Shown here piece after piece: positions 4,413 through 26,104 of a stretch of 64,000 nt of DNA. Position numbers and translations under genes: made by a program. Under the pieces are notes generated by a model. It saw only the letters and a list, made by a program, of their open reading frames with translations, ran no database searches and was not told the DNA's origin. The DNA comes from an uncultured Gammaproteobacteria bacterium (GTDB lineage: Bacteria; Patescibacteriota; Patescibacteriia; SG8-24): the NCBI GenBank assembly GCA_964626205.1, contig CAZVED010000002.1:23708-87707 (forward strand), in the 5' to 3' direction. Within the stretch, counting starts at the first letter, position 1; every line of letters starts with the position of its first letter.

Positions 4413-4415
4413 CCT

Positions 4416-5477
4416 ATGACGAACCACACCAAAACGACCATCGCCGTCATCCATGGAGGCCGCTCCGGAGAGCATGAGATCTCCCTGCTTTCGGCGCGCT
4501 CAATCATGGACGCGTTGGATAAGGAGAGGTACGACGTCCTCCCGATTCTCATCGGTAAAGATGGCGTGTGGACCGTCGGCGGCGAGACGCGCTTGCTGTC
4601 TCCGGATGCCAAAGGAGGGAACTTGCTCCGTGAAGACGGGAGTCTCGCCGAACGGTTCGATGTCGCTTTCCCGATCGTTCACGGGACAGACGGCGAGGAT
4701 GGCGCGCTCCAAGGCATGCTCCGGCTGGCCGATATTCCGTTCGTGGGGAGCGACGTGCTCGGATCCGCCATCGGCATGGATAAGGTCATGCAGAAACGCG
4801 TGCTCCGCGACGCCAAGATCCCTGTCGCCGCATGGGTCGATTTCCGCGCGCACGAATGGGAAGCCGATCACGAGGCCGTCGTCGGCCTCATCGAGGTCAG
4901 CCTCAACTATCCAGTCTTCATCAAACCCGTGAGCCTCGGTTCCTCGGTCGGCATCAGCAAGGCGCGCAACCGCCAAGAACTGCTCGATGCCATCGCCTTG
5001 GCGCTGCGCGTCGATACGCACGTCATCGTGGAAAAAGCGGTTCCCGCCGCACGCGAGATCGAATGCGCAGCGCTCGGAAACGTCGACCACGCCATCTCCG
5101 TCTTCGGGGAAATTTTCCCGAGCAACGAATTCTACGACTACGCCGCGAAATATCTCGATGGCACGTCAACAACCGCGATTCCCGCGGACCTCCCGTCGAC
5201 CCTGGAGGAAAAACTGCGAGGAATGGCGGAACGCGCCTGCGCCGTGCTGAATGTGGAAGGTATGGCGCGTGTGGACTTCCTCATCTCACGCGATTCCGGG
5301 GAAGCGGTCCTCAACGAAATCAACACGCTCCCCGGATTCACCGCAATCAGCATGTATCCCAAACTCTGGGAAGCATCCGGTATCGCGTACCCAGCACTTC
5401 TGGACCGCCTCATCACGCTCGCTATCGCGCGGTACGGGGAACAGGAACAGCTGGAACGTGACTTCACCGCCCTATGA
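4416..5477 (+). CDS. ddl: D-alanine--D-alanine ligase
   Basis: Starts IAVIHGGRSGEHEISLLSA and has an ATP-grasp C-terminus (GMARVDFLI...NEINTLPGFT). It lies immediately downstream of alr. Confidence 0.9.
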   Translation: MTNHTKTTIAVIHGGRSGEHEISLLSARSIMDALDKERYDVLPILIGKDGVWTVGGETRLLSPDAKGGNLLREDGSLAERFDVAFPIVHGTDGEDGALQGMLRLADIPFVGSDVLGSAIGMDKVMQKRVLRDAKIPVAAWVDFRAHEWEADHEAVVGLIEVSLNYPVFIKPVSLGSSVGISKARNRQELLDAIALALRVDTHVIVEKAVPAAREIECAALGNVDHAISVFGEIFPSNEFYDYAAKYLDGTSTTAIPADLPSTLEEKLRGMAERACAVLNVEGMARVDFLISRDSGEAVLNEINTLPGFTAISMYPKLWEASGIAYPALLDRLITLAIARYGEQEQLERDFTAL

Positions 5478-6572: not shown

Positions 6573-8372
6573 ATGGACAAGAAACGGATGCTCATGACGG
6601 GATTCCTCGTCGCAGGCCTCGTCGCCATCGCAACGGTCGTCATGACCGAGCAAGCGCGCCCCAGCGTCAAACATGTCGACTTCGGCACGTTCAGCGGGAT
6701 GATCGATAGCGGCAAGCTGTCGGAGATCGTCATCTCTGGCACTGAGGTCGGCGGCAAGGGGGCGGGAAGCGACACGACGTACTACCGCTCCGTCGGCAAT
6801 GCGCCGGCCATCGAGATCCTCCTCCGCAAGGCGGAAGAGAAAAAAGTGCCGTACCGCATCGTCGAACCTGCGGACACGGGGTTCATCTGGACGATCGTGA
6901 TGTTCGGCATCCTGGGCTTCTGCCTGATCAGCTTCATGAGGTCAGCCGGAGGAGCAGGGAAGCAGATCACCTCGTTCGGACGCAGCAAGGCACGGCTCCT
7001 CAGCCCAAACACCAACGTCGTGAAGTTCACCGACGTGGCTGGTGTACCTGAGGCTGTCGAGGACTGCCGTGACCTCGTGGAGTTCCTCAAGAATCCGAAG
7101 AAATTCCAGAAGCTCGGCGGCAAGGTACCGAAAGGCATCCTGCTGATGGGTCCTTCAGGAACCGGTAAGACGTTGCTTGCGCGCGCGATCGCCGGAGAAG
7201 CGAATGTCCCATTCTTCTCCATCTCCGGCTCTGACTTCGTCGAGATGTTCGTCGGTGTGGGTGCATCCCGCGTCCGCGACCTCTTCGAACAAGGAAAGAA
7301 AAACGCGCCATGCATCATCTTCATCGACGAGATCGATGCGGTCGGCCAAAAACGCGGCCAAGGAACGAGCGGCGGCGGGCATGACGAGCGCGAGCAAACG
7401 CTGAATCAGCTGCTCGTGGAGATGGACGGCTTCGAAGGGAATGTCGGCATCATGATCGTCGCAGCGACGAACCGTCCGGACACCCTCGATCCCGCATTGC
7501 TCCGTCCCGGTCGCTTCGACCGAAAGGTCATCGTACCGCGGCCGGACCTCAACGGACGTGTCGCGATTCTCAAGGTTCACGCGAGGAAGATCCCGCTCGC
7601 TCCCGATGTCGACCTCTCTGTGACCGCTCGGGGCACGCCCGGATTCACCGGCGCGGACCTTGAAGACCTTCTCAACGTGGCAGCGCTCAAGGCGGCCAAG
7701 CTGGGCAAGGATGTCGTCGGGACCGACGACCTGGATGCGGCTCGCGACAAGATCGTGATGGGCGGCGATCCGCGCAAGGGCGTCGTCATGACGGAGCCTG
7801 AGCGCCGGATGACAGCCGTGCACGAGATGGGCCACACCATCGCGGCATGGTTCGAGCAAGATGCCCATCCGGTTCACAAGGTGACCATCATCCCGCACGG
7901 CCCGGCTCTTGGCGTCACCATGTTCCTTCCGGAAGGCGATCAGCGCAGCTACAGCGCGGAACAGATCATCAGTCAGATTCGTGTCGCCGTCGCAGGACGG
8001 GCGGCGGAAGAGCTCGTAATCGGACAGATCACGACCGGAGCAATCAGTGACTTCGAGCAAGCTACCGCCGCCGCGCGAGCCATGGTCATCAACTATGGCA
8101 TGACCGATGTCGGCATGCAGACCTTCGGCTCGAAACACCACGGCTTCCTCGGAACGGAAGAAGGTGTGCGCACCTACAGCCAAGCTACGGCGCGACGTAT
8201 CGACCGGAAGATCGAGTCGATCATCCAAGAGGCGTACGCGCACGTGAAGGCGTTGCTAACGACGCACCGCGCCTTGCTCGATGCGGGCGCGCAAGCCCTG
8301 CTCGAGCACGAGACGCTCGACGCCGCGCAACTCCGCGCCATCCTCGGCCCTCCGGTCTTCCGGATGGCCTGA
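6573..8372 (+). CDS. ftsH: ATP-dependent zinc metalloprotease FtsH
   Basis: N-terminal TM, AAA module ([23 protein letters not shown], Walker [32 protein letters not shown]) and M41 zinc motif [10 protein letters not shown]...GGRAAEE. Confidence 0.95.
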
Positions 8373-15758: not shown

Positions 15759-16331
15759 ATGACCGCCGAAGAGCGACAACTTGCGGAGCGCAGCAGGGCA
15801 GGAGACCGCGAGGCCTTCGCCGGCCTTTACGATGCCTACGCGCAAAAAATCTACCGCTACCTCTATTACCGCATCCAGAACCGCCACACTGCCGAAGATC
15901 TTACGAGCACCGTGTTCCTGAAAGCACTGAATGGTATCGGTAGTTTCGACCCAGAGAAGGGAAGTGTCTCCGCCTGGTTCTACACTATCGCCAGAAACGC
16001 GCTCACCGACCACTTCCGGACGCAAAAGGCGACCGTCGACCTAGAAGACGTCTGGGATGCGCTCGTGGACGGCACGGACCTTGTCCGCGATGCCGATACC
16101 GCCGAACGCCTCAAAGACGTGGACAAGCACCTCATGACGCTCACTGCCGCTCAGCGCGATGTCGTCATCATGCGCCTCTGGGACGGGCTTTCCTACGCCG
16201 AGATCGCAGAAGCGACCGGTAAGAGCGAAGCCGCCTGCAAGATGACGTTCTCTCGTGGAATAACGACGCTTCGCTCGGTCATGCCACTCACCGCCTTCCT
16301 CCTGTTCCTCATTACACGCCCCTATGCATGA
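15759..16331 (+). CDS. ECF-type RNA polymerase sigma factor (sigma-70 family, group 4)
   Basis: Region 2 (FAGLYDAYAQKIYRYLYYRIQNRHTAEDLTSTVFLKAL) and region 4 HTH (RDVVIMRLWDGLSYAEIAEATGKSEAACKMTFSRGITTLR) are present. Confidence 0.85.
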   Translation: MTAEERQLAERSRAGDREAFAGLYDAYAQKIYRYLYYRIQNRHTAEDLTSTVFLKALNGIGSFDPEKGSVSAWFYTIARNALTDHFRTQKATVDLEDVWDALVDGTDLVRDADTAERLKDVDKHLMTLTAAQRDVVIMRLWDGLSYAEIAEATGKSEAACKMTFSRGITTLRSVMPLTAFLLFLITRPYA

Positions 16332-17910
16332 ACGAACAAAAAACCTGCTCATCGAGCTTTACGCGCTCGACCCCTCGCTGAAGGAGCATGAACCTGCCCT
16401 CGTCGCGGTCCTCGAACGCATGACCGCTGCGAAACCCGATGTTCGCATCGACCAAGCCTTCCTTGCAGAACTCCGAGAAACCTTGCTCGCGGTACCAGCA
16501 ACCACTCCTCCTCGCTATCACAACATTATCACTAACCTTTTCGACACTATGTCCAAAACACCTTTCATTCTCGGTGGCCTCGCCATGACCGCCGTCCTCG
16601 TCGCCGTCGTTGCGACGCTTCCGGGACAGGCCCCTTCCGGCACACCGACCGGTTCACAGCTTGCCATGCTCGACGGCATCGTCGACACGGCACCAGGTGC
16701 ATTCGGAAACATCGGTGCGCTCGGCCTACAGGGCGTCGAAGCTCCGTCCGTTGAGTCAGTATCTACGGACACCTCTGCGCCCGCCGCAGAACCGATCGCC
16801 GTCCTCGGCACACCAGCAGCCATCTCCGCACGTCCGCAATCCGGCGGCGGGGGAGGGCTCGGCATGGGAAGCGACGCCAAGATGAGCATCCTCCCATGGT
16901 ACCCGTCTCCCGCGTACGACATCGTCTACGAAGGAGCCGAGCCGATCGAGATCGCCGAGCAGTCGGTCTACCGCCGGAGCACGGACCAGCAGACGCTTAC
17001 AGCATTCGCCGCAGCGGTCACCGGACGTCAGAACGGTCTCATCGACCTCTCCCGTTTCCGCGACCTTCGCATCGAGCGCATCTCGCTCTTCGAGGACCGT
17101 GCAGGCGGGTACCAAACGGAGCTCAACCTCTTCGACGGCTCCCTCTACATGAACCTCGACTGGCGCCACCAGCAATATGACCCGGCAATGGACCGACAGA
17201 TTCCTCTGTCCGAACTGCCGTCGGACACGACGTTCATCGACGCAGCAAACGCTTTCATGGACCGCTTCGGCATCGACCGTGCGGTCTACGGGGAACCGGT
17301 CGTCGACACCAGCTGGCAGCGCTACGTCATCATGGCCGATAGCGCAGAAGCATCCTACGCACCTTCCATGGTGAGCGTGGTCTACCCGCTCCTCGTCGAT
17401 GACATGCAGGTCACGGAGTTCGGTGGAGAAATCGCCGGACCGCGCGTCCACATCCGCGTCCAGGACCTCACGGTGATGAACCTCGGCAATCTCACGACGC
17501 GCCGCTTCGAGCGGTCCGCATACGCCCTCGAACTCGACGTCGTGCGTCTCGTCGCCTTCGCGGAAAAGGGCGGCATCCGCGGCTCCATCCATCAGCCGAT
17601 GAGTTACGACGACCAGGGGAATCCGGTCACACCGACGGAGCCCATGGAGGCCCTGCGCCTCGGGGAGCCTGAGCAGGTGCTCATGAAGATGTATCACTCA
17701 ATCGACAACGTCTCGGTGGAGCTCTATCTCCCGGCCCTCCGCTTCCCGATCCTTAACGTCCCGCAAGGCCCCGATTACTACGGCCCGCGCGATGTCATGG
17801 TGCCGCTCGTGAAGGACATCCTCGATGAAGCCGAGCGCATGATGGACCAACAGCCCGTCCCTATGCCGCTCGACCTCCCGGCCGTCAGTGAACCGGCTGT
17901 CCTCCGGTAG
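16324..17910 (+). CDS. Putative anti-sigma factor or ECF-associated membrane protein
   Basis: Start overlaps the sigma stop (ATGCATGA). A short cytoplasmic N-terminus is followed by one TM (ILGGLAMTAVLVAVVATL) and a large external domain. Confidence 0.5.
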   Translation: MHERTKNLLIELYALDPSLKEHEPALVAVLERMTAAKPDVRIDQAFLAELRETLLAVPATTPPRYHNIITNLFDTMSKTPFILGGLAMTAVLVAVVATLPGQAPSGTPTGSQLAMLDGIVDTAPGAFGNIGALGLQGVEAPSVESVSTDTSAPAAEPIAVLGTPAAISARPQSGGGGGLGMGSDAKMSILPWYPSPAYDIVYEGAEPIEIAEQSVYRRSTDQQTLTAFAAAVTGRQNGLIDLSRFRDLRIERISLFEDRAGGYQTELNLFDGSLYMNLDWRHQQYDPAMDRQIPLSELPSDTTFIDAANAFMDRFGIDRAVYGEPVVDTSWQRYVIMADSAEASYAPSMVSVVYPLLVDDMQVTEFGGEIAGPRVHIRVQDLTVMNLGNLTTRRFERSAYALELDVVRLVAFAEKGGIRGSIHQPMSYDDQGNPVTPTEPMEALRLGEPEQVLMKMYHSIDNVSVELYLPALRFPILNVPQGPDYYGPRDVMVPLVKDILDEAERMMDQQPVPMPLDLPAVSEPAVLR

Positions 17911-17943
17911 ACTTCTGGAAGCGGAATAGACCGTCCTACCATC

Positions 17944-18034
17944 CTGTCATTGCGAGTGGGTCGTACTCGACCCCGAAGCAATCCCGAACATGACGGGATT
18001 GCTTCAGGCCTAAAGGCCCTCGCAATGACAAAGG
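17944..18034. repeat. Composite palindromic element: two inverted copies of a ~36-nt unit also found at 43068
   Basis: Outer arms are TGTCATTGCGAG / CTCGCAATGACA. The inner hairpins are GGGTCG-tac-tCGACCC, GAAGCAATCCCG-aacatga-CGGGATTGCTTC and GGCC-taaa-GGCC. Confidence 0.7.
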
Positions 18035-18121
18035 TGGCGGGACGGTTTTTCGCTAGTTGACACTATCGGGCCCGGAGGCAAAGATAGGGGGACGCACCTT
18101 CTAGCGTCCTCAGAAAGGATC

Positions 18122-18757
18122 GTGCCCGTGGACGAAAATCCCAAGACTCCGCCATCCGCCTCCTACGTCCCCATGGTCGTCTTCGGTGATCGTGGTCACG
18201 AACGGGCAGCAGACATCTTCTCGATGCTGCTCGCCAAGCGCATCATCTTCATCCAGAGCGAGATCGAGCCATACATGGCCGCCGCGGTCGTGGGACAGCT
18301 CATCTATCTCGACTTCGAGGATCCCGACAAGGAAATCTGCATGTACATCCAGAGCCCGGGCGGCCAGATCACTTCCGGCCTCGCGATTGTGGACACCATG
18401 CGGTTCATCAAATCGCCGATTCGCACAGTCTGCGTCGGACAATGCGCCTCCATGGCCTCCTGGATCCTCGCGGCAGGCACCAAAGGACGGCGCACGATTC
18501 TCCCGAACGCGGAAGTCATGATCCACCAGCCTATCGGCGGCGTACGTGGTCAGGCAACGGACATCGAGATCGCGAACACCCACATGCAAGCGACCAAGCG
18601 ACGTATGAACGAGCTCTTCGCAGCCTTCACCGGCAAGAGCATCGAGGAGGTCCGGAGGGACACCGACCGCGACAACTACCTTACCGCCGAACAGGCGAAG
18701 GAGTACGGCATCGTCGACCAGATCATCCCCTGGAGTGTCCCGATCCTCGGCAGCTAA
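18122..18757 (+). CDS. clpP: ATP-dependent Clp protease proteolytic subunit
   Basis: GTG start with GAAAGGA upstream. Catalytic Ser (GQCASMASW), His (MIHQP) and Asp are in ClpP positions. Confidence 0.9.
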   Translation: MPVDENPKTPPSASYVPMVVFGDRGHERAADIFSMLLAKRIIFIQSEIEPYMAAAVVGQLIYLDFEDPDKEICMYIQSPGGQITSGLAIVDTMRFIKSPIRTVCVGQCASMASWILAAGTKGRRTILPNAEVMIHQPIGGVRGQATDIEIANTHMQATKRRMNELFAAFTGKSIEEVRRDTDRDNYLTAEQAKEYGIVDQIIPWSVPILGS

Positions 18758-18835
18758 ATGCGGACGCTTCTGCATACCAACGGCTTCCTCGTCATGAGGG
18801 GCCGTTTTTTGTTCGCGGTGCTATACTGACCGCAT

Positions 18836-20158
18836 ATGCAGCAAAAGAAGCGCCTCATCATCGTCGCGGTCGCCGCAACTGTGACTGTTGCAGCCATTCT
18901 CGCTGCCATCCTCATCGTCATGCGTCCCGTCCGGCAAGCGGACATCGTCCCGCCGCTCCTTACCTCGAACGAGGTTGCAGAACTCGGGATCCGCGAAGAA
19001 TCCTTCACGCTACCGCCTCCTGAGCCGATGCCGACAGGGGAGTATGGTCCGCCCGCTCCGGAAGTCGTGCGCCAACCCTACCTCCCGCCGCCATCCATGA
19101 ACCTCACCAGCTCGCGTCTTGGCACACAACGCGTTCCTGGGAGCGAAGACGTCGGTGATGTCTATCAGATTCTTTTCCATGCGCGTGCATCCGCGTTGTT
19201 CATGGCAGTCATCGAGCCCACGGGGCTGCGCGCCATCTGGAAGCTGGATCAGCACGGGGCTTTCGAACGTGTCTTCGCGGTGAGCGAAGCGCAAGGGGAG
19301 ATACGCCTCTTCATGACGAGCGGAGGAGTGATGTACGTACAGGCGCATGGCGTCAAAGGCATGCTCCGTACCGACGATGCCTTCGCGACCATCCACCAGG
19401 TCGACGGCGACTTTGGGATGTTCTGGCAGATGACCGACAACGGTAGGGGAACGGTCTGGGGGACGCAGCATGAGTTCAACTCCGCCGTTCTGTTCCGCAG
19501 CACGGATAACGGCCTTACCTGGGAACCGTGGGTAGACTTTCATCAGCTCCTTCCGCAGGAAGCGCGGCGCTATGCGCAAGGTGACGAACGATTCCGGCTC
19601 CGCCACCTGCACGGCATCATCTTCAACGACAAGACGCAGGAACTCGTCGTAGGAACGGGCGATGTCGCACGCTACGCGCTCCGGACGCGCGACGAAGGAT
19701 TCACCTGGGAGCAGATCTGGGACGAAGGCTTCACCGCGTGGGCGCCGGTCCCCGGAGGAAGTCGCTACGTCCTCGGTCCGGATAAACTTGCAGGTCCAGG
19801 AATCGTCCTCTATGACGCCTGGGCAGACACGGTCCGCACGGTCTGGACGCCGTGGAAGCACGGCTATGCTGGGTACACCTACTCCATCATCAGCGCGGAA
19901 GGCATCCTCTACGCCGCGTTCCACACCGAAGCGAACGAGGTCGAGGAGCGGACGCCGCTCTTTGGTATCGTCGTCTCACCGGACGCTGAAACCTGGTATC
20001 CGTTCCTCCAATGGGGTCCGCTCGGCAACCATGCGCGCACGGACATTTGGCTCGCTCCGTCGCCCAGTGCAATCTACGCAAGCGTCAACGGCGCGCTCTA
20101 CGCCTTCAGTCCACTCGACCAGGAGTGGTTCACGAACAAGACTCCGTTCATGGAATGA
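18836..20158 (+). CDS. Membrane-anchored BNR/Asp-box repeat protein (sialidase-like beta-propeller)
   Basis: N-terminal TM (LIIVAVAATVTVAAILAAILIV). Asp-boxes are STDNGLTWEPW and RTRDEGFTWEQIW. The -10 TATACT at 18823-18828 is only 7 nt from the ATG, so the mRNA may be leaderless. Confidence 0.55.
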   Translation: MQQKKRLIIVAVAATVTVAAILAAILIVMRPVRQADIVPPLLTSNEVAELGIREESFTLPPPEPMPTGEYGPPAPEVVRQPYLPPPSMNLTSSRLGTQRVPGSEDVGDVYQILFHARASALFMAVIEPTGLRAIWKLDQHGAFERVFAVSEAQGEIRLFMTSGGVMYVQAHGVKGMLRTDDAFATIHQVDGDFGMFWQMTDNGRGTVWGTQHEFNSAVLFRSTDNGLTWEPWVDFHQLLPQEARRYAQGDERFRLRHLHGIIFNDKTQELVVGTGDVARYALRTRDEGFTWEQIWDEGFTAWAPVPGGSRYVLGPDKLAGPGIVLYDAWADTVRTVWTPWKHGYAGYTYSIISAEGILYAAFHTEANEVEERTPLFGIVVSPDAETWYPFLQWGPLGNHARTDIWLAPSPSAIYASVNGALYAFSPLDQEWFTNKTPFME

Positions 20159-20191
20159 AAAACGGCTCCCTGAAAGGGGAGCCGTCGTCGT

Positions 20192-20845
20192 TTACTCGAA
20201 GGTCAGACTGTTCATGACCTGCAGCATCTCGCGACGCCGCATGTCTTGCCGGGCCTTTGGCCACTCGGCACGGATGACCACCGTGTACTCCTGCGGCTGT
20301 TGTGGTAGACGCATGACCGCGAAAAAGACCTGTCTGGTTCCGCGCTCCGTCACCAGCACGCTCGTGAACCACGCCTTCTCGTCGTTCGACGTCTTGGTAG
20401 GGTATGCGCGAGTCATCCTCGCTCCATCGGCCTTCTCTTTCTCGAAGATGGCGTGCAACAAGTCTGGAACCGATGCCACATCGCTCGAACGACGGATGTC
20501 GATGCGGATCTCCGCGTCGCGATGCCCGTTCGTAAACAGGACGTCCGTGTTCGCGGCGAAGGAGACGTTCTTGAGGAACGACCCGCTCCAATCGGAGGAC
20601 GTCTCGTACCGCAGACGTACCGGTCGTGGCGCGGCGGGGTTGCCGTACGCGGTCGGGTTCCGGAAGACCTCGCGCTCCGTCATGAGCGGCGGGTCACGAA
20701 GCGGCTCGTCGCGCGTCACGGTACGGGTCACCACAGGAACCGTTCCTGCGGCCGCAAGCGGGTCCGTGGGCGAGTCCGCACTGGCTGGCAAAACTGCCGC
20801 CAGGATGGCAAAGACCGAAAGAACGCTGTTGGTTCTCATGCGCAT
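20192..20845 (-). CDS. Secreted protein, distant paralog of the lipoprotein family (AEWP motif)
   Basis: Start taken at MRMRTNSVLSVFAILAAVLPASA (signal peptide) with AAGGAGGAG upstream. The C-terminus ends ...VVIRAEWPKARQDMRRREMLQVMNSL. Confidence 0.55.
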   Translation of the reverse strand: MRMRTNSVLSVFAILAAVLPASADSPTDPLAAAGTVPVVTRTVTRDEPLRDPPLMTEREVFRNPTAYGNPAAPRPVRLRYETSSDWSGSFLKNVSFAANTDVLFTNGHRDAEIRIDIRRSSDVASVPDLLHAIFEKEKADGARMTRAYPTKTSNDEKAWFTSVLVTERGTRQVFFAVMRLPQQPQEYTVVIRAEWPKARQDMRRREMLQVMNSLTFE

Positions 20846-20934
20846 GAGTATCTCCTCCTTCGCAGCAGCGGGATGCCCTGCGAACATCTAGACCTACCAT
20901 GCCCGCCCATTCTTGGCAAGGATAAGGCTCAGGA

Positions 20935-20967
20935 TAAAAAAGGGGGCAGACCGAGTGTCTGCCCCCT
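20935..20967 (-). terminator. Intrinsic terminator of the 20978-21934 gene
   Basis: GGGGGCAGA-ccgagt-GTCTGCCCCC followed by TTTTTTATCC on the minus strand. Confidence 0.6.
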
Positions 20968-20977
20968 CACGAAAGGT

Positions 20978-21934
20978 TCAGTGATTCATCGACTCGTCGA
21001 CGACGATCGGGCCGTCCTCGCAGTGGACGGGGCCGTACTCGCCGTTATTGTACGCGTCGAGCATCGCGCCGAGCATCTTTGCGTTCGCGCTCGCGAGCGC
21101 GCCAGCGCCGCGATTCGACGTGCGGTAGGGAAGCTTGCCGTCCGCATCGGCGTTCGCGCTCATCCATGCCTGGGCGGCCGCAAGGTCGTCCATGAACGCG
21201 TCGGTACCGCCGGCCCCCGCAGCGACGTTGAGCATCGCAGCAATGAGCTGGTGGCCGAGAATGAGGCTCGCGTCGCCGCGTGTCGGGGTCTTCAGGATGA
21301 CCAACAGCTCCGCCTTCGTGTACGTACGGTTCCCGAGCGTCAACTCGTCGACCGGCCATGCCTCCGGATGGTTCTTCCAGAAGCCCTGCGTCAGCGTGCA
21401 ACCGTAGTCGGTCCCGGCATCCGGCTCCTCATCGCAGAGGAACGTGTATGCCACGAACTGGTACTGGCCGCCGACGCCCGTGAAGTGCAGGGACTGCGTC
21501 TGAACGTGCAGGAACTTCGCCATGATCTGCATCATGAGCGCATCACCGCACGCCGGCTCGCCGATCGCTTCGAACGGGATGACCACGGTCGAGGTCGTCG
21601 CGGTAGACGAAAGACCGAAGTTCTGGACGTACGGGCACTGCCACGGATCCGTAGACGTGACGGCACCGAAGGTCGCGCAGATCGACGTGTACACGATGAC
21701 GAATCCGGGAGATGCCGTGAACGTGACCGTCACTGCCGCATCGTCGGAAGACACCGTCGCCATGCCGGCCTGGACGGGGAAACCGTTCAGTGTCGACATG
21801 AGCGGATAGTCCGCCGCCGGGATGCTGAGCGTCTGCCGTTGCCCGGCGACCTCGTTCGGCTGCTCCGCCACGGCGCAAGCCCCGACCATGAGTGTCGCTG
21901 CGACCAGGAAACTCCATCGAACGATACGTGTCAT
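20978..21934 (-). CDS. Lipoprotein with conserved CTLTQGFWKNHPEAWP motif
   Basis: Starts MTRIVRWSFLVAATLMVGAC (lipobox VGAC), with RBS AAAAGGAGGA. The mature protein is Thr/Ser-rich and contains the GCTLTQGFWKNH motif and several Cys. Confidence 0.55.
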   Translation of the reverse strand: MTRIVRWSFLVAATLMVGACAVAEQPNEVAGQRQTLSIPAADYPLMSTLNGFPVQAGMATVSSDDAAVTVTFTASPGFVIVYTSICATFGAVTSTDPWQCPYVQNFGLSSTATTSTVVIPFEAIGEPACGDALMMQIMAKFLHVQTQSLHFTGVGGQYQFVAYTFLCDEEPDAGTDYGCTLTQGFWKNHPEAWPVDELTLGNRTYTKAELLVILKTPTRGDASLILGHQLIAAMLNVAAGAGGTDAFMDDLAAAQAWMSANADADGKLPYRTSNRGAGALASANAKMLGAMLDAYNNGEYGPVHCEDGPIVVDESMNH

Positions 21935-21959: not shown

Positions 21960-22700
21960 TGAGACGCGGTCGCATGCTACAAGATTCCATGGATATGTCA
22001 AGGAGGTCGTAGCGCTATGCATCTTCGATGAAGCATTTTTTGGCTTTGTTAAGCTAAAAAATGCTTATTATCCTTAAAATTGGCTTAATCTAGCAAAAAA
22101 ACGACACTGGCGGTTATCGATAAATTTTGAACAAGCACGGCAAGAACATCTGCAAAAGATCTCTGACAAGTCTCAACAAGAGAGCTGGCTGCTCCATATC
22201 TCGCTTCGCCACGCCAGACACTTGCTGAACAAGCACGGCAAGAGAAAAGCATTTTTAGGGGGCCTCCCCCCGATCCCAGCCTTATTAAGTGTCGTCTAAG
22301 ATATATTGTGCGACACAGTAGAGACCACTCCTGGGCCGCTTCCCTCGCGCTCCTAGAGGTCAACGCCCCCGTACTGCTCTGGTGTATTTTCCCTGGGTGC
22401 TCTGGCCATGAAGTTCCATCCCTTGGCGCACACGCGACACAAGTCACTGGGACGAGACCCGTGCGCACATCATGGCGCTACCCCATCGTTGCCTTCTGCT
22501 GGATCGCCGGGCGCGCGGACTCAGTCCCCGACCATGGGATACTCAGTCGCACATGACATGGTTCCCCATCCTCCATTTTGGTCGTTTCTGAATGTGGACG
22601 AAAGTCCCTCGATGTGTCGTAAAATGTATATCCTGCGCCCTGCGTCCATTGACCAGCAATCCGCCTGCCGTATACTGACCGCACCGCCCTTTGCCATGGA
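21960..22700. other. AT-rich non-coding island with direct repeats
   Basis: No convincing ORF on either strand. GC drops sharply, visible for example at 22040-22140. TGAACAAGCACGGCAAGA occurs at 22128-22145 and 22226-22243. It ends in a TTGACC-N16-TATACT promoter (22657-22684) for the next gene. Confidence 0.5.
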
Positions 22701-22703
22701 GGC

Positions 22704-23270
22704 TTGCTAATGACGCCGACGCATGCACGCGCACTCGCCCACGAGAGCGGTCACGCCCTCGTCGCCTGGTTCTCGCCCAACTGCGAAAGTGTCGCGGAAG
22801 TCATCGCTCGCGAGGACGGATCCGGTATCGTCGCGAGTCACTGGCCTCCCGAAAAACCCGTCCGCGTGCTCTGGGAACGGACGTCCCAGATTCTCGGCGG
22901 CATCGCCGGCGAGTACTGCGCGCTCGGGTCGTACCGAGCCGGCGGCGCAGCGGATGACCTCATGAAAGCGATCAACGTCGCGCGACGCATCGTCCTCCTG
23001 CAGGGAGCGGACACCGTGCCATGGCAGGGCGATGCCTATGCCGAAAAACTCACCCACGTGGAGCGCGCATTCGCGAACGGTATCACCGACGACGAGGCGC
23101 TCGTCCTCAACCGTTCCCTGCGGCATGCGATCCACATGATCGAGCGGCAACGGACAGGCTTCGACGCGCTCCAGGCGCATCTCGCAACGCAGCGCCTCGT
23201 GTACGGTCACGAACTCGAAGCGCACTTCGGGAATCGAAAACTCATCCGCCTGTTCAGCATCTTCCGCTGA
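22704..23270 (+). CDS. Stand-alone FtsH-type (M41-like) zinc metallopeptidase domain protein, no AAA module
   Basis: AHESGHALVAWFSPN and LGGIAGEYCALG align with Fts[12 protein letters not shown] and [12 protein letters not shown] (zinc ligands H, H, E). The protein is 188 aa and GGAGG precedes the ATG. Confidence 0.6.
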   Translation: MLMTPTHARALAHESGHALVAWFSPNCESVAEVIAREDGSGIVASHWPPEKPVRVLWERTSQILGGIAGEYCALGSYRAGGAADDLMKAINVARRIVLLQGADTVPWQGDAYAEKLTHVERAFANGITDDEALVLNRSLRHAIHMIERQRTGFDALQAHLATQRLVYGHELEAHFGNRKLIRLFSIFR

Positions 23271-23278
23271 GCTTCTCC

Positions 23279-23306
23279 CCGCCGCATATGCCTGCGGCGG
23301 TTTTTT
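23279..23306 (+). terminator. Intrinsic terminator
   Basis: CCGCCGCA-tatgcc-TGCGGCGG followed by TTTTTTC. Confidence 0.6.
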
Positions 23307-23348
23307 CTTTACGCATATACCAAAAACGCCGCCCTTACCGGACGGCGC

Positions 23349-24596
23349 TCACGGAGCCACGAGATACTTCATCGGATCAACGGGGATGCCGCTCTTTCTG
23401 ACCTCGAAGTGCAGGTGGGGGCCGGTCGTCATCGTTCCTGCACCCGGCGTGCCCGGCATGCCGCCGCTGTAGCCGATGACCTCGCCCCGCTCGACGAACG
23501 TATCCTCCTTCACCATGATGCGTGAGATATGTCCGAACACCGTGGAGATGTTGTTGTTGTGCAGCAACATGATGTACGAATATCCATATCCCGCATCCTT
23601 CGCACGCGCCACGATGCCGGACGCCGGAGCGCGGACAGGCGTGCTTTGGTACGCGCGAATATCGAGCCCTGGATGCTCGTAGACATAGCGGAACGGGTAT
23701 TCCGGATCATGGAAGCGCGTGGAAATGCCGCGAGTCGGCACCACCGGCCACGAGAGCACGGTATCCCCTCCTCCGAGCCGGTCCGCGGTCTCGATACGTT
23801 CGCGCAACGTCCGCTCCAGCCGCCCGATGTCCGCGTCGGCTTCCTGTAACTCGCGCTGGAGTTCCGCGACCATATAGCGGTACCGAAGCTCCGACGATTC
23901 CGTCTCGACCAACACTGCGTTCTTGAGAATGCGGTCATCCTCAAGCAGCTCGCGCTCTGCGACAAGCTCCTGCCGTTTCACTGCGAGCGCGTCTTGGACC
24001 CTGCCGCGCTGCTCGCGTTCCATCGCGAGCGAGGCATGCATGCCCTTGATGGAGGCAAGCGACTTGTTCATGCCTGCCTGCATGTCGGACATCGCGCGGA
24101 TGTCGTCGAAGAATGCGGAGAACGTGTCGTGCGAAAACAGGATCTCGAACGCCGACCGGTTGAACTTCGCCCGATACAGCTTGCGCGAAAGTCCTGCCAT
24201 GATGACCTTCTCACGCTCCATCTGCTCCTCTTGCTCCACGATCCGCTCATCGAGCATCTTCACCTCGAGCTCCAACACCTGAATCTCCTGTCCAGTGATG
24301 TCGATGGACAACTGCGTCCGCGCGATCTTCGACTCGAGCAGGTTGATCTGATCGGCGAGCTCGGCGCTCTCGCCGCGCTTCTCGAGCACAAGGTTCTTGT
24401 AGCCGTCGATGCGGCTCGACAGCGACGAGAGATCGCGCTTTTTGTCTGCCACCTGATGGTTGATTTGTTCGATTTGTGTGCGCACGTCGGAGCCGTTCGA
24501 CGCCGTCTGCGCCGACACTGACACTGCCGCGAATGACGCCGCAGCGATGAATGCAGCGACGACGATGAGCGACCGATGCGATGACGCGAACCTCAT
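23349..24596 (-). CDS. M23-family murein endopeptidase with N-terminal coiled coil (EnvC-like)
   Basis: Signal/TM, then long heptad-rich region, then a C-terminal LytM domain (GLDIRA...HLHFEVRKSGIPVDP). Confidence 0.8.
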   Translation of the reverse strand: MRFASSHRSLIVVAAFIAAASFAAVSVSAQTASNGSDVRTQIEQINHQVADKKRDLSSLSSRIDGYKNLVLEKRGESAELADQINLLESKIARTQLSIDITGQEIQVLELEVKMLDERIVEQEEQMEREKVIMAGLSRKLYRAKFNRSAFEILFSHDTFSAFFDDIRAMSDMQAGMNKSLASIKGMHASLAMEREQRGRVQDALAVKRQELVAERELLEDDRILKNAVLVETESSELRYRYMVAELQRELQEADADIGRLERTLRERIETADRLGGGDTVLSWPVVPTRGISTRFHDPEYPFRYVYEHPGLDIRAYQSTPVRAPASGIVARAKDAGYGYSYIMLLHNNNISTVFGHISRIMVKEDTFVERGEVIGYSGGMPGTPGAGTMTTGPHLHFEVRKSGIPVDPMKYLVAP

Positions 24597-26104
24597 AGCA
24601 GCGTGATAGCAGTACGTAAACGCGCAATCGTCGCGTCTTTACCGAGCACGCAAGCAAGCTCAAATGGGCCGGGTGATGCCGCGCGGCCGGACAACGCTAC
24701 GCGCATAGGCCATAACGTTTCCGCGTTCGTCCACCCACGCTCCTTGATGTGCGCGATGCCTGCGGCTTCGAGCGTCAGACGATCTTCGAATTCACCGTCC
24801 GTACGAGCGGAAAGCCAGGCAACCATACCTTCCAATCGGTCCTTCGCGACCTCGGGCGTCGCCTTCTTGCCGGGAAGGAGTGCTGCATCGACCGCCACCG
24901 CTGCCGTGAACATGTAGCCTACCGCTGCTGGCAGCTCCGCGAGGACCGCGATGCGTTCCCGCTCGGAAGCGACCGCACGTTCGGCCTTTTTCCAGTCGAC
25001 CATAGTACCGTCTTCCGCGATAAACCCACCTTCCGCGTGACGCAACGTTCCTGCATGCTCGAGGAACGGCAATGCGCGCTGGAACAGCTCCGCCGGCGAT
25101 AACGCACGAAGGTACTGACCGTTCATCCAATCGAGCTTTTCTTTCGCGAACACCGCGCCCGCAGAATTGACCTTCGCGAGATCGAACGCGTCGGCAAGCT
25201 CCTGCTTGGCATAGATCTCCCGGTCCCCTGTCGGGTTCCAACCGAGCAGCGCGACGAAATTGACGAGCGCTTCCGGAAGGTATCCCTTGTCGAGGAAATC
25301 CTCGGCAGCGACGTCGCCTTGCCGCTTGGAGAGCTTCGACTTGTCCGGATTGAGCAGCAGCGGAATATGCGCGAACTCGGGCGGTGTCCAACCGAACGCC
25401 TTATACAGGACGACATGCTTCGGCGTGGACGGCAACCACTCCTCGCCACGGATGACATGCGTGATGTCCATGTGGTGATCATCGACGACGTTCGCGAGAT
25501 GGTACGTCGGGAACCCGTCCGTCTTGATGAGCACCTGATCGTCGATGAGCGCGTTCTCGAACGAAACGTCGCCACGCACAGCATCCATGAACGTCGTGAC
25601 GCCTTCTTTCGGCATCTTCATACGGATGACGTACGGCGTACCCTTGGTAATCTCCGCTTCTGCCTCGTCCTGCGGAAGATTGCGGCATTTGCCGTCGTAC
25701 ATCATGGGAAGCTTTGCCTCGGCCTGGGCCTTCTTCACCTCTTCGAGACGTTCGACCGAGCAGAAACAGCGGTAGGCACCACCCTTCTCAAGCAGCAGTT
25801 CTGCGTGCTCCTTATACAAAGCAGTCCGTCGGGATTGGACATACGGGCCCTTGTCGCCGCGCTCCTGGATAGAACCGTCCTCCGTAAGGTACGGACCTTC
25901 GTGCGGAACAATGCCGCAGCGCGACAACGTGCGCAGCAGACTCTCTACCGCTCCTTCGACGTAGCGCGTCTGGTCCGTGTCTTCGATACGTAACACAAAC
26001 GTTCCGGCGTGTCGCAATGCGAACAGCTCGTTATACAAAGCAGTCCGGAGTCCTCCGACATGCAAAAATCCCGTGGGTGATGGTGCGAACCGTACCCGTA
26101 TCAT
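24593..26104 (-). CDS. gltX: Glutamyl-tRNA synthetase
   Basis: Starts MIRVRFAPSPTGFLHVGGLRTALYN (HIGH-type motif). KLSKRQGD is the KMSKS motif. Confidence 0.9.
   Translation of the reverse strand: MIRVRFAPSPTGFLHVGGLRTALYNELFALRHAGTFVLRIEDTDQTRYVEGAVESLLRTLSRCGIVPHEGPYLTEDGSIQERGDKGPYVQSRRTALYKEHAELLLEKGGAYRCFCSVERLEEVKKAQAEAKLPMMYDGKCRNLPQDEAEAEITKGTPYVIRMKMPKEGVTTFMDAVRGDVSFENALIDDQVLIKTDGFPTYHLANVVDDHHMDITHVIRGEEWLPSTPKHVVLYKAFGWTPPEFAHIPLLLNPDKSKLSKRQGDVAAEDFLDKGYLPEALVNFVALLGWNPTGDREIYAKQELADAFDLAKVNSAGAVFAKEKLDWMNGQYLRALSPAELFQRALPFLEHAGTLRHAEGGFIAEDGTMVDWKKAERAVASERERIAVLAELPAAVGYMFTAAVAVDAALLPGKKATPEVAKDRLEGMVAWLSARTDGEFEDRLTLEAAGIAHIKERGWTNAETLWPMRVALSGRAASPGPFELACVLGKDATIARLRTAITLL

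What the first reader, a model, noticed from the sequence alone, without database searches (positions are those of the whole stretch)
22704..23270. Orphan FtsH-type M41 peptidase domain with no AAA ATPase, expressed from its own strong promoter in an AT-rich island
A 188-aa protein keeps the HExxH zinc site and the downstream Glu ligand in a context that aligns directly with the C-terminal domain of the bona fide FtsH in this same window (HESGHALVAWF vs [11 protein letters not shown]; GGIAGEY vs AGRAAEE). It has no AAA module or TM segment.

Free-standing M41 domains are unusual. It could act as a regulatory protease partner, or as an immunity or anti-defence factor. It is preceded by a near-consensus TTGACC-N16-TATACT promoter and sits right after a low-GC non-coding island, which suggests foreign origin.
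Basis: partly seen in the sequence, partly recalled or inferred. Interest (0 to 1): 0.55.

Follow-up and report, generated by a model that had tools for sequence, protein, structure and literature searches.

The report
Stand-alone FtsH-type protease domain, no ATPase
This is a real, probably expressed small gene in a CPR (Patescibacteria) bacterium that encodes only the zinc-protease half of the FtsH quality-control machine, and it belongs to a sizeable uncharacterised family of motor-less proteases found in these bacteria and in phage-like genomes.

Summary
Window 22710-23270 (+) encodes a 186-aa protein; the true start is ATG 22710, not TTG 22704. It scores above Pfam's cut-off for Peptidase_M41 over almost the whole domain. 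It folds confidently (pLDDT 92) and matches only FtsH/AFG3L2/YME1 protease domains. It keeps H11, E12, H15, E68 and D83, which aligns with the third zinc ligand, Asp500 of T. maritima FtsH. It has no AAA module and no membrane segment. The promoter-like site, Shine-Dalgarno sequence, ATG and terminator are confirmed, and the first three are conserved in orthologous loci.

It is not a one-off. An exhaustive search found at least 150 clusters of short AAA-less relatives. They form one clade apart from AAA-linked M41 domains and carry their own signature residues (W20, W55, W105, R176). One sub-clade lies in CPR chromosomes, and the other lies on phage-like and IMG/VR contigs.

Foreign origin is not supported for this copy: composition is native, synteny with M23-gltX is conserved, and no defence-system model matches. 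Relatives carry one to three paralogs at the same locus, including membrane-anchored pseudo-proteases.

Most likely function: an ATP-independent, probably ring-forming zinc peptidase, acting alone or together with FtsH. A 28-bp palindromic site, conserved across genomes of 37-66% GC, lies just upstream and remains unexplained.

The parts
22710..23270 (+). CDS of the 186-aa AAA-less M41 (FtsH-type) zinc-peptidase domain protein, stop codon included. HESGH at residues 11-15, E68, D83.
   Evidence: ORF; Pfam PF01434 at 43.2 bits, above the 29.9 cut-off; AF2 pLDDT 92; Foldseek matches only FtsH-family protease domains; D83 aligns to T. maritima Asp500.
22698..22702 (+). Shine-Dalgarno GGAGG, 7 nt upstream of ATG 22710
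   Evidence: Sequence; invariant in the alignment of five orthologous upstream regions.
22649..22676 (+). Sigma-70-like promoter site TTGACC-N16-TATACT
   Evidence: 10 of 12 consensus matches, with 0.5 sites expected in shuffles. The -35 TTGACC, the spacing and the -10 [T/C]ATACT are conserved in L001, L002 and L003. Function is inferred.
22593..22630 (+). Conserved proximal block TGTGGAC-N4-GTCC-CTCGATGTGTCGTAAAAYGT just upstream of the -35. It contains a half copy (GTGTCGTAAAA TGTATA, 22614-22630) of the 28-bp site.
   Evidence: 87-95% DNA identity to L001, L002, L003 and L022, although the proteins are only 36-61% identical. The GTGTCGTNNAA motif occurs only twice in the 64 kb window.
22289..22316 (+). 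28-bp imperfect palindrome GTGTCGTCTAA-GATATA-TTGTGCGACAC (conserved block 22279-22325). One copy per locus, fixed orientation, function unknown.
   Evidence: 91.5% identity over 47 nt to L004 and 88.9% over 45 nt to L023. Found in 15 metagenome contigs of 37-66% GC. One copy per locus, none in viral contigs.
22013..22280 (.). The AT-rich part of the gap (44% GC). It holds a promoter-like site for the divergent 318-aa gene, an AT-rich hairpin at 22031-22066, and a perfect 18-nt direct repeat at 22128-22145 and 22226-22243.
   Evidence: No Rfam family, no tRNA.
23279..23310 (+). Intrinsic-terminator-like hairpin (8 pairs, 7 of them G-C) plus a T-run, 9 nt after the stop codon
6573..8372 (+). 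The genome's bona fide FtsH (599 aa: FtsH_ext, AAA, AAA_lid_3, Peptidase_M41). Candidate partner, and the comparison sequence.
   Evidence: 30% identity to the M41-only protein over 112 residues.
23349..26104 (-). Convergent M23 peptidase (coiled-coil N-terminus, 23349-24596) and gltX (24593-26104). These are the conserved synteny anchors of the locus.
   Evidence: 76-80% identity to L001 and L024, 57-61% to L004.

Best explanation
The gene encodes a catalytically competent, cytosolic, ATP-independent zinc metallopeptidase consisting of an FtsH-type (M41) protease domain and nothing else. It belongs to an old, uncharacterised clade of AAA-less M41 proteins that is distinct from the protease domains of true FtsH.

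Shown here: M41 fold and sequence membership; a complete metal and catalytic site (H11, E12, H15, D83, plus E68) conserved across the clade; purifying selection; its own conserved promoter-like site, SD and terminator; vertical inheritance at a fixed chromosomal locus in a group of high-GC CPR/Patescibacteria.

Inferred: FtsH protease domains form stable hexameric discs. By analogy, the protein assembles into a ring, either a homo-oligomer or, in relatives that carry 2-3 tandem paralogs, a hetero-oligomer with membrane-anchored pseudo-protease subunits. Lacking an unfoldase, it would cleave peptides or unfolded and unstructured polypeptides without ATP. Alternatively it receives substrates from, or docks onto, the resident FtsH. 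This parallels the ATPase-dead Lon-like protease LonC.
For: Family and fold:
- Pfam M41 above gathering, near full length.
- AF2 model pLDDT 92, pTM 0.89.
- All 47 Foldseek PDB hits with E < 1e-3 are FtsH, AFG3L2, YME1 or FtsHi protease domains; the top hit is 3kds_E, E = 6.6e-8, TMq 0.71.

Active site:
- The family profile aligns to T. maritima FtsH 2CE7 with HEAGH on His423/His427, E68 on Glu486 and D83 on Asp500 (offset counted from the printed alignment).
- M41 is defined by HExxH plus a downstream Asp as third ligand (PMC5939537).
- H11, E12, H15, G64 and D83 are invariant in 60 diverse members. HExxH is present in 146 of 150 top hits.

A distinct clade:
- The exhaustive search gave 1796 hits at E <= 1e-3, and the best 150 are all 147-284 aa.
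- In an NJ tree, 182 short proteins plus P0231 form one clade with no AAA-linked domain.
- W20, W55, W105 and R176 are conserved in the clade and rare in AAA-linked M41 domains (W55 in 0 of 40).

Selection and expression signals:
- dN/dS is 0.22-0.40.
- Promoter-like site, SD and ATG are conserved in orthologs. A terminator follows the stop.

Native and vertically inherited:
- Composition is native.
- Synteny with M23-gltX and the ClpP-side genes is conserved.
- GltX relatives are Parcubacteria, Uhrbacteria and Patescibacteria MAGs.

Oligomer inference:
- Tandem active and degenerate paralogs occur in L001, L003, L022, L024 and L037.
- TM-anchored members follow the positive-inside rule, with K+R of 0 before and 3.1-3.6 after the helix. 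This places the catalytic domain in the cytoplasm, as in FtsH.
- A full FtsH lies directly upstream in L004, L026 and L031.

Precedent: LonC is a hexameric, ATP-independent Lon-like protease that degrades only unfolded substrates (PMC3391209).
Against: - No biochemical data exist for any member.
- Oligomeric state could not be predicted with the tools available (single-chain prediction only).
- Substrates are unknown.
- In true FtsH the protease sites are reached through the AAA ring, so a free ring might be unregulated or need another gate.
- The window genome shows only one copy and no membrane-anchored paralog within 64 kb, so the hetero-oligomer idea rests on relatives.
- The gene evolves faster than its neighbours: 61% against 78% identity in L001, and 32% against 57-61% in L004. 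This would also fit a less constrained, accessory role.
- CPR promoters are not characterised, so 'expressed' is inferred.
Confidence: 0.6

Rival explanations
1. FtsH modulator. The protein co-assembles with, or caps, the protease ring of the resident FtsH through the conserved protease-domain interfaces. It would alter FtsH activity or specificity as a regulatory or dominant-negative subunit, and would not act as an autonomous peptidase.
For: Protease domains drive the stable FtsH hexamer (PMC12067869). A full FtsH gene lies immediately upstream on the same strand in L004, L026 and L031, and probably L023. Heteromeric FtsH/FtsHi rings with inactive subunits are known in plastids (PDB 8xku/8xks hits; PMC8197885). 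Relatives carry degenerate paralogs.
Against: A pure modulator would not need an intact catalytic site, yet H, E, H and D are invariant across the clade. The protein is only 30% identical to the resident FtsH protease domain. The clade has its own signature residues, which argues for self-association over mixing. In the window, FtsH lies 14 kb away. In the FtsH-adjacent loci the two genes are separated by the 28-bp site and an intergenic gap of about 450 nt.
Confidence: 0.2
2. Recently acquired mobile-element or phage cargo, such as a host-takeover, anti-defence or immunity factor, inserted next to a recombination site.
For: One large sub-clade sits on phage-like contigs of 50-600 kb with dense co-directional ORFs. 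It also sits on 7 IMG/VR contigs carrying phage-type helicase, HNH, PAPS-reductase and integrase-like genes. BFVD holds a 214-aa M41-only protein from an uncultured Caudovirales phage. Copy number at the CPR locus varies from 0 to 3 next to a conserved 28-bp palindrome, with half-site copies between genes.
Against: The gene has native GC, GC3 and codon usage. Synteny is conserved on both sides. Orthologs diverge in step with their neighbours. The window protein falls in the sub-clade that contains none of the phage-context members. No PADLOC model matches. No match in 50,697 GenBank phages and none of this family on plasmids. The 28-bp site is absent from viral contigs. No integrase or transposase lies nearby.
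Confidence: 0.12
3. Decaying remnant. The gene is a truncated duplicate of FtsH on its way to loss, with no function.
For: It evolves faster than its neighbours. The window has lost the paralogs present in relatives, leaving a 690-bp gene-free gap. Frameshifted or interrupted copies exist in some viral contigs (L017-L021).
Against: The ORF is intact and of conserved length (186 aa in three lineages). dN/dS is 0.22-0.40. Catalytic residues are invariant. Promoter-like site, SD and terminator are conserved. The model is confident and compact. The clade is ancient and large.
Confidence: 0.04

Closest known systems
FtsH (MEROPS/Pfam family M41) C-terminal protease domain
   Same: Same fold (Foldseek TMq up to 0.71). 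Same HExxH plus downstream Asp metal site and the Glu of the 'AAEE' motif. Near full-length match to the Pfam domain.
   Different: No AAA+ module, no transmembrane helices and no periplasmic domain. It scores 33.9 bits against the 600-bit cut-off of the FtsH equivalog TIGR01241. It forms a separate clade with its own conserved W20, W55, W105 and R176, so it cannot be ATP-dependent by itself.
LonC-type Lon-like proteases without ATP-powered unfolding (PMC3391209)
   Same: The concept: the protease part of an AAA+ protease family surviving as a distinct clade without a working motor. LonC is hexameric and degrades only unfolded proteins and peptides without ATP. This is the working model proposed here.
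   Different: A different protease family (Ser-Lys Lon versus zinc M41). LonC keeps a degenerate AAA-like domain, whereas this protein has none at all. Activity and assembly are demonstrated for LonC and only inferred here.
FtsHi pseudo-proteases and heteromeric FtsH rings of plastids (PMC8197885; PDB 8xku, 8xks)
   Same: Relatives of this locus combine active (HExxH) and degenerate (HAAAN, HAAAS, HVAGK) M41 paralogs in tandem. This is reminiscent of mixed active and inactive FtsH/FtsHi rings. FtsHi chains are among the fold hits.
   Different: FtsHi proteins retain AAA modules and act as import motors. Here all subunits lack AAA. The window itself holds only the active type.
Stand-alone 'ATP-dependent Zn protease' proteins of about 230-260 aa in Rhizobiales (e.g. 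P0208, P0229, P0232)
   Same: Also short, Pfam M41-only proteins already in NCBI and UniProt under generic names.
   Different: They fall outside the core clade in the tree and group nearer to the AAA-linked domains. They hit the family profile only at E of about 1e-12 to 1e-14.
ImmA/IrrE (M78) HExxH metallopeptidases
   Same: Small, cytosolic HExxH proteins.
   Different: No M78 hit at E <= 10. No M78 structure is among the 47 significant fold matches, which are all FtsH-family. No adjacent HTH repressor gene. Rejected.
dif/Xer sites, IMEX elements and 'dif modules' (PMC3025954, PMC4246890, PMC12907356), for the 28-bp site only
   Same: 28 bp, readable as 11-bp inverted arms around a 6-bp AT-rich spacer. 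One copy per locus, deeply conserved regardless of GC content, and located between convergent genes in M41-free loci. Variable gene content lies beside it, and a half-site has a degenerate second arm, as described for phage dif-like sites.
   Different: The inner-arm complementarity used to define dif is weak (3 of 6 pairs, against more than 4 required), while the outer arms are perfectly complementary (criteria applied to the sequence). No GC-skew shift at the site. No recombinase gene found nearby. Function untested.

Membership tests
Peptidase family M41 (Pfam PF01434 / MEROPS M41 fold) | Match to the family HMM above the curated threshold | tested here: met
   43.2 bits against gathering 29.9, E = 5.2e-11, profile positions 14-187 of 191. 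The PDB profile search hits 18 FtsH-family chains, the best at 2.6e-18.
Peptidase family M41 (Pfam PF01434 / MEROPS M41 fold) | HExxH zinc-binding and catalytic motif | tested here: met
   HESGH at residues 11-15. H, E and H are invariant in 60 family members.
Peptidase family M41 (Pfam PF01434 / MEROPS M41 fold) | Downstream aspartate as third zinc ligand (PMC5939537) | tested here: met
   D83 is invariant and aligns to chain position 355, which is Asp500 of T. maritima FtsH 2CE7 (numbering offset derived from the alignment). Metal binding itself was not tested.
Peptidase family M41 (Pfam PF01434 / MEROPS M41 fold) | Three-dimensional fold of the FtsH protease domain | tested here: met
FtsH proper (ATP-dependent zinc metalloprotease, NCBIfam TIGR01241) | AAA+ ATPase module N-terminal to the protease domain | tested here: not met
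   No AAA Pfam hit. 33.9 bits against the 600-bit cut-off. An in-frame stop lies 19 codons upstream of the ATG. No AAA remnant in the upstream gap.
FtsH proper (ATP-dependent zinc metalloprotease, NCBIfam TIGR01241) | N-terminal transmembrane anchor(s) | tested here: not met
   Only 10 residues precede HExxH, and the maximum 19-residue hydropathy is 0.82. Other clade members do have one N-terminal helix.
FtsH proper (ATP-dependent zinc metalloprotease, NCBIfam TIGR01241) | Hexameric ring assembly through the protease domains | not testable with these tools
   Only single-chain prediction is offered. Inferred from the literature on FtsH (PMC12067869).
ImmA/IrrE (Peptidase_M78) | Match to the M78 HMM or fold; adjacent HTH repressor substrate | tested here: not met
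   No M78 hit at E <= 10, none among the significant fold matches, and no HTH gene adjacent.
Known anti-phage defence systems (PADLOC-DB 2.0) | Match to any defence-protein model | tested here: not met
   0 families at E <= 1 for the window protein and for four diverse family members.
dif (Xer chromosome-dimer resolution site), applied to the 28-bp site at 22289-22316 | 28-bp site with two recombinase-binding arms around a 6-bp centre | tested here: inconclusive
   It reads as GTGTCGTCTAA / GATATA / TTGTGCGACAC, with arms identical at 9 of 11 positions as inverted repeats. Kono's inner complementarity test (positions 7-12 against 17-22, more than 4 pairs) gives only 3 of 6.
dif (Xer chromosome-dimer resolution site), applied to the 28-bp site at 22289-22316 | [quoted passage not shown] | tested here: not met
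   Cumulative GC skew falls monotonically through 22.3 kb, and the slope changes only near 35 kb. The whole genome is not available.
dif (Xer chromosome-dimer resolution site), applied to the 28-bp site at 22289-22316 | Single copy per chromosome and a cognate Xer recombinase | not testable with these tools
   One full copy in 64 kb and one per fetched locus. No recombinase among the flanking or window ORFs scanned.

The most novel reading that the evidence does not exclude
AAA-less M41 proteins are subunits of a previously unrecognised ATP-independent, FtsH-like ring protease. It would be built from active subunits and membrane-anchored pseudo-protease subunits. Its genes behave as cassettes: 0-3 copies accumulate beside a 28-bp recombinase-type site conserved across the CPR lineage, and a sister clade has been taken up by large phages for host manipulation. 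The 28-bp site would be the CPR chromosome's dif-like or integration site.
Probability: 0.12. Interest if true: 0.75.

Novelty: new variant of a known kind. Interest (0 to 1): 0.5.

Why it matters
FtsH is the only essential AAA+ protease in many bacteria. Its protease domain has always been studied as the passive end of an ATP-driven machine. This family is large, ancient and under selection, and it keeps the catalytic site while discarding the motor. That implies the M41 ring can work in another mode, either as an energy-free peptidase or as a bolt-on subunit. It may be relevant that the family occurs in CPR bacteria and in phage-like genomes; CPR bacteria are, to my knowledge, minimal-genome episymbionts. 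The family gives protease biochemists a compact 186-residue, soluble, confidently modelled entry point. It would also correct the misleading database label 'ATP-dependent Zn protease'. Separately, the 28-bp site, conserved from 37% to 66% GC, is a candidate landmark for CPR chromosome biology.

Tried and rejected
- **ImmA/IrrE or another zincin:** rejected by Pfam and by fold search.
- **Recent duplicate of the resident FtsH:** rejected. Identity is only 30% over 112 residues, and the two fall in separate clades.
- **Upstream gap as a decayed paralog or AAA remnant:** only one very weak HMM hit (E = 0.13 over all ORFs, 27 residues) and a weak tblastn hit (E = 0.81). Treated as chance.
- **Upstream gap encoding a known RNA:** no Rfam hit at gathering. 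The only hit at E <= 1 is a 16.6-bit Bacilli-1 match against a 55.6-bit cut-off. No tRNA or tmRNA.
- **28-bp palindrome as an RNA hairpin:** the variable positions (7, 22, 27, 28) do not covary as pairs, and A27 to T breaks the stem in four loci. Disfavoured.
- **28-bp palindrome as a dedicated operator of the M41-only genes:** contradicted. It is present between convergent genes in loci with no M41-only gene (L029, L033, L035).
- **Regulon search:** GTGTCGTNNAA occurs only at the two upstream positions in 64 kb. My first 21-letter pattern was one base too long and found nothing.
- **Defence-system membership:** none.
- **GenBank phages:** no homolog. The 'FtsH-like' genes reported in jumbo phages MIJ3 and vB_OspM_OC are AAA-containing, not this family.
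- **Plasmids:** mainly full-length ftsH on megaplasmids, identities 25-38%, and nothing close to this family.
- **GTDB representative genomes:** the pattern scan returned three weak matches. The one I inspected (L005, Polyangiaceae) is an ordinary FtsH, and the window's own genome was not returned.
Full report
**1. The observation**

Window 22704-23270 (+) is an open reading frame. The reported TTG start is followed two codons later by ATG 22710, which has a GGAGG (22698-22702) 7 nt upstream. Three orthologous proteins start at that Met and are also 186 aa. The GGAGG and the ATG are invariant in an alignment of five upstream regions. The product is therefore 186 aa.

They align with [13 protein letters not shown] and AGRAAEE of the window's true FtsH (6573-8372; FtsH_ext, AAA, AAA_lid_3 and Peptidase_M41) at 30% identity over 112 residues, E = 3e-6.

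**2. Family assignment**

- Pfam gives Peptidase_M41 at 43.2 bits, above the 29.9 gathering cut-off, covering profile positions 14-187 of 191. The next hits are insignificant, and no ImmA/IrrE (M78) hit appears at E <= 10.
- NCBIfam's FtsH equivalog scores 33.9 bits against a 600-bit cut-off, matching only its residues 423-517. So this is an M41 domain but not FtsH.
- An AlphaFold2 model built on a 42-sequence family alignment is confident: pLDDT 92, pTM 0.89.
- All 47 Foldseek PDB matches with E < 1e-3 are protease domains of FtsH, AFG3L2, YME1 or plastid FtsH/FtsHi. The top hit is 3kds_E, E = 6.6e-8, TMq 0.71.
- A family profile aligns to T. maritima FtsH 2CE7. HEAGH falls on His423/His427, E68 on Glu486 and the invariant D83 on Asp500 (native numbering is chain index plus 145, counted from the printed alignment). 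M41 is described as HExxH plus a downstream aspartate as third zinc ligand (PMC5939537).
- There is no AAA module. An in-frame stop lies 19 codons upstream of the ATG, and no AAA or M41 remnant is detectable in the upstream gap.
- There is no hydrophobic segment; the maximum 19-residue hydropathy is 0.82.

**3. Transcription unit**

The TTGACC-N16-TATACT site at 22649-22676 matches 10 of 12 consensus positions, with 0.5 sites expected in shuffles. The -35, the spacing and the -10 ([T/C]ATACT) are conserved in L001, L002 and L003. A G+C-rich hairpin plus T-run at 23279-23310 follows the stop codon. Expression is inferred from these signals and was not shown.

**4. It is a family, not an orphan**

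The word-indexed search found only three relatives: 61%, 58% and 33% identity. The exhaustive HMMER search with their profile found 1796 proteins at E <= 1e-3 and 329 at E <= 1e-10. These are representatives at 50% identity. The best 150 are all 147-284 aa.

- HExxH is present in 146 of 150, mostly as HEAGH.
- In 60 diverse members the invariant columns are H11, E12, H15, G64 and D83, and E68 is at least 90% conserved.
- In a neighbour-joining tree of 265 M41 domains, 182 short proteins plus P0231 form one clade that contains no AAA-linked domain. P0231 is M41 fused to a ClpB_D2-small domain, with no AAA module.
- W20, W55, W105 and R176 are conserved in this clade and rare in AAA-linked domains. 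W55 is present in 168 of 183 clade members against 0 of 40 AAA-linked domains.
- Public names are only 'hypothetical protein', 'ATP-dependent Zn protease' or 'cell division protease FtsH'.
- My searches of the held library returned no paper describing AAA-less M41 proteins. The 'FtsH-like' genes reported in jumbo phages contain AAA modules.

**5. Where the family lives**

The window is a cellular chromosome. It encodes a class II D/K/N-type aminoacyl-tRNA synthetase, SerS, Alr, Ddl, FtsH, GltX, ClpB, SecD/F and others. The closest named GltX relatives are Parcubacteria, Uhrbacteria and 'Patescibacteria group' MAGs, so the source is a high-GC CPR bacterium.

The gene's GC (0.645), GC3 (0.775) and codon usage (r = 0.83 to the other genes) are native. 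The locus is syntenic in relatives:
- M23 and gltX lie convergent on one side: 76-80% identity in L001 and L024, 57-61% in L004.
- ClpP-side genes lie on the other side: 42-63% in L024.

dN/dS among the three 186-aa orthologs is 0.22-0.40, against 0.19 for M23.

The content between the anchors varies:
- The window has one gene.
- L001 has two.
- L003 and L024 have three tandem paralogs. These include a membrane-anchored copy whose HExxH has degenerated to HAAAN, HAAAS or HVAGK.
- L022 and L037 have two.
- In L004, L026 and L031 a full FtsH gene lies directly upstream.

A second sub-clade (117 leaves) holds every member I could place in a phage-like context:
- P0051, P0160, P0161 and P0180 lie on contigs of 50-600 kb made of short, co-directional, overlapping ORFs with almost no Pfam hits. 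Only 2 of 10 neighbours had PHROG hits.
- Seven IMG/VR contigs carry the gene alongside phage-type helicase, HNH, PAPS-reductase and integrase-like genes.
- BFVD has a 214-aa M41-only protein from an uncultured Caudovirales phage.

The window protein sits in the other sub-clade (66 leaves), together with all the CPR-locus paralogs. N-terminal membrane helices occur in 62% of the phage-context sub-clade and 26% of the CPR sub-clade. K+R averages 0 before and 3.1-3.6 after the helix, so the catalytic domain is predicted to be cytoplasmic. No GenBank phage, plasmid or PADLOC defence model matches the family.

**6. Mechanism**

Shown: a complete, conserved M41 catalytic site in a confidently folded stand-alone domain, under purifying selection, with its own expression signals.

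Inferred:
- FtsH protease domains form the stable hexameric disc of the enzyme (PMC12067869). The protein retains the whole domain, including the C-terminal helices. It therefore probably forms a ring.
- With no unfoldase, it should act without ATP on peptides or unstructured polypeptides. The ATPase-dead Lon-like protease LonC does this (PMC3391209).
- The tandem active and degenerate paralogs, and the FtsH adjacency in relatives, suggest hetero-oligomers or cooperation with FtsH. This is the main rival reading.

I put 0.6 on 'active, ATP-independent, oligomeric peptidase', 0.2 on 'FtsH modulator', 0.12 on 'recently acquired mobile cargo' and 0.04 on 'decaying remnant'.

**7. The upstream 'island'**

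Only 22013-22280 is truly AT-rich, at 44% GC. It carries:
- a promoter-like site for the divergent 318-aa gene;
- an AT-rich hairpin at 22031-22066;
- a perfect 18-nt direct repeat at 22128 and 22226.

Two short blocks are conserved at the DNA level in loci whose M41-only proteins are only 32-61% identical.

The distal block (22279-22325) contains a 28-bp imperfect palindrome, GTGTCGTCTAA-GATATA-TTGTGCGACAC (22289-22316):
- A degenerate 26-nt version of it matches exactly in 15 metagenome contigs whose GC content ranges from 37% to 66%.
- There is one copy per locus, always in the same orientation relative to M23-gltX and to the M41-only genes. It is absent from viral contigs and from the phage-like loci.
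- It heads the M41-only arrays in L003, L004, L023, L024, L025, L026, L031 and L038.
- It is also present where no M41-only gene exists. There it lies between convergent gene ends (L029, L033, L035) or 70 nt after M23 (L028). It is therefore not simply an operator of these genes.
- Its variable positions do not covary as an RNA stem would.

The proximal block (22593-22630) lies just upstream of the -35. It contains a left-arm-plus-spacer half copy, GTGTCGTAAAA-TGTATA.

The 11-6-11 layout, the deep conservation, the single copy, the convergent flanks, the neighbouring variable gene content and the half-site with a degenerate second arm all recall Xer/dif sites and IMEX or 'dif-module' insertions (PMC3025954; abstracts). 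Against that reading:
- The inner-arm complementarity used to define dif is weak, at 3 of 6 pairs.
- The window has no GC-skew shift at the site.
- No recombinase gene lies nearby.

I leave it as an unexplained conserved site with a tentative recombination-site reading.

**8. Verdict**

The 'foreign origin / anti-defence' reading is not supported for this copy.

The thing is a new variant of a known kind: a member of a large, uncharacterised, AAA-less branch of the M41 peptidases. Interest is moderate (0.5). The catalytic logic is familiar. The existence, breadth and CPR/phage distribution of a motor-less FtsH protease, and its variable arrays beside a deeply conserved 28-bp site, were not described in any paper I could find and are directly testable.

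Noticed in passing
window 22289-22316 (conserved block 22279-22325); also L003 563-590, L004 1375-1402, L023 715-742, L024 10030-10057, and L025-L039: A 28-bp imperfect palindrome, GTGTCGTCTAA-GATATA-TTGTRCGACAC. It is conserved in contigs of 37-66% GC, with one copy per locus and a fixed orientation relative to M23-gltX. It occurs with or without M41-only genes beside it, and lies between convergent genes in the M41-free loci. It resembles a recombinase (dif-like) core site, but it fails the inner-palindrome test and shows no GC-skew shift. Function unknown.
   Followed up: partly
window 22593-22630; L001 639-676, L002 81-118, L003 2055-2090, L022 ~150-185: An invariant block, TGTGGAC-N4-GTCC-CTCGATGTGTCGTAAAAYGT, immediately upstream of the -35 of the M41-only gene. 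It includes a small inverted repeat (GGAC-N4-GTCC) whose loop varies, and a half copy of the 28-bp site. It could be an activator or UP-type site, or a recombination scar.
   Followed up: partly
window 22031-22066, 22128-22145 / 22226-22243, 22247-22259: An AT-rich hairpin with 16-nt arms. A perfect 18-nt direct repeat, TGAACAAGCACGGCAAGA, spaced 98 nt apart. A second copy of AAGCATTTTT(T/A)GG. Together they look like a small duplication or a miniature-element remnant in the 44%-GC part of the gap.
   Followed up: no
L003 694-2730; L001 27-1316; L024 7804-9917; L022 272-1638; L037 1-1305: Tandem arrays of 2-3 M41-only paralogs in relatives. They include N-terminally membrane-anchored copies whose HExxH has degenerated (HAAAN, HAAAS, HVAGK). 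This is a pseudo-protease plus protease arrangement reminiscent of FtsH/FtsHi.
   Followed up: partly
L004 2-1075 / 1534-2142; L026 1370-3172 / 3-467; L031 1641-3587 / 3828-4730: In one sub-family (proteins of about 202-209 aa) a complete FtsH gene lies directly upstream on the same strand, and the 28-bp site sits in the gap between the two genes.
   Followed up: partly
L017 and L018 4881-7286; L019, L020 and L021 4326-5592 (IMG/VR contigs): In L017 and L018 the viral M41-only ORF is split by an in-frame insert of about 560 residues. HMM positions 5-172 and 170-210 lie 558 residues apart. In L019-L021 the gene is split by a frameshift shared by three contigs. These could be an insertion element or intein-like insert, or pseudogenes. 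Not resolved.
   Followed up: no
P0231 (411 aa, NCBI contig of 32.5 kb): The only long member inside the stand-alone clade. It is M41 fused to a ClpB_D2-small (AAA-lid-like) domain with no AAA core, a possible adaptor for a Clp/Hsp100 partner.
   Followed up: no
L008 7664-8065 and L016 1812-2567: The same phage protein family of unknown function (phrog_34511, E about 1e-18) lies within a few kb of the M41-only gene in two unrelated phage-like contexts.
   Followed up: no
L008-L014 (contigs of 50-600 kb, e.g. ERZ25039491 contig_10361): Very long contigs of 60-67% GC made almost entirely of short, co-directional, overlapping ORFs with no Pfam hits. A few Rv2525c-like glycoside hydrolase, NT5C, HerA-like and ADP-ribosylglycohydrolase genes are scattered among them. 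They are probably huge phages of an undescribed lineage.
   Followed up: partly
window 58506-60671 (-): A 721-aa protein with TrwB/TraG-type (type IV secretion coupling protein) domains, in what appears to be a CPR chromosome. The adjacent 479-aa ORF (60671-62110) has no Pfam hit.
   Followed up: no
window 16324-21934: A run of sizeable ORFs (528, 440, 231 and 318 aa) with no Pfam family. By my reading of the sequence, the 318-aa protein (20978-21934, -) starts with a lipoprotein-like signal (…LMVGAC). The 440-aa and 231-aa ORFs have homologs in L024, while the 318-aa gene does not.
   Followed up: no
P0191, P0313, P0273 (names given by sources): CPR-like GltX and M41-only fragments on 2-13 kb contigs are labelled Thermoanaerobaculia or Binatia MAGs. 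Their closest relatives are Patescibacteria, which suggests mis-binned contigs in those MAGs.
   Followed up: no
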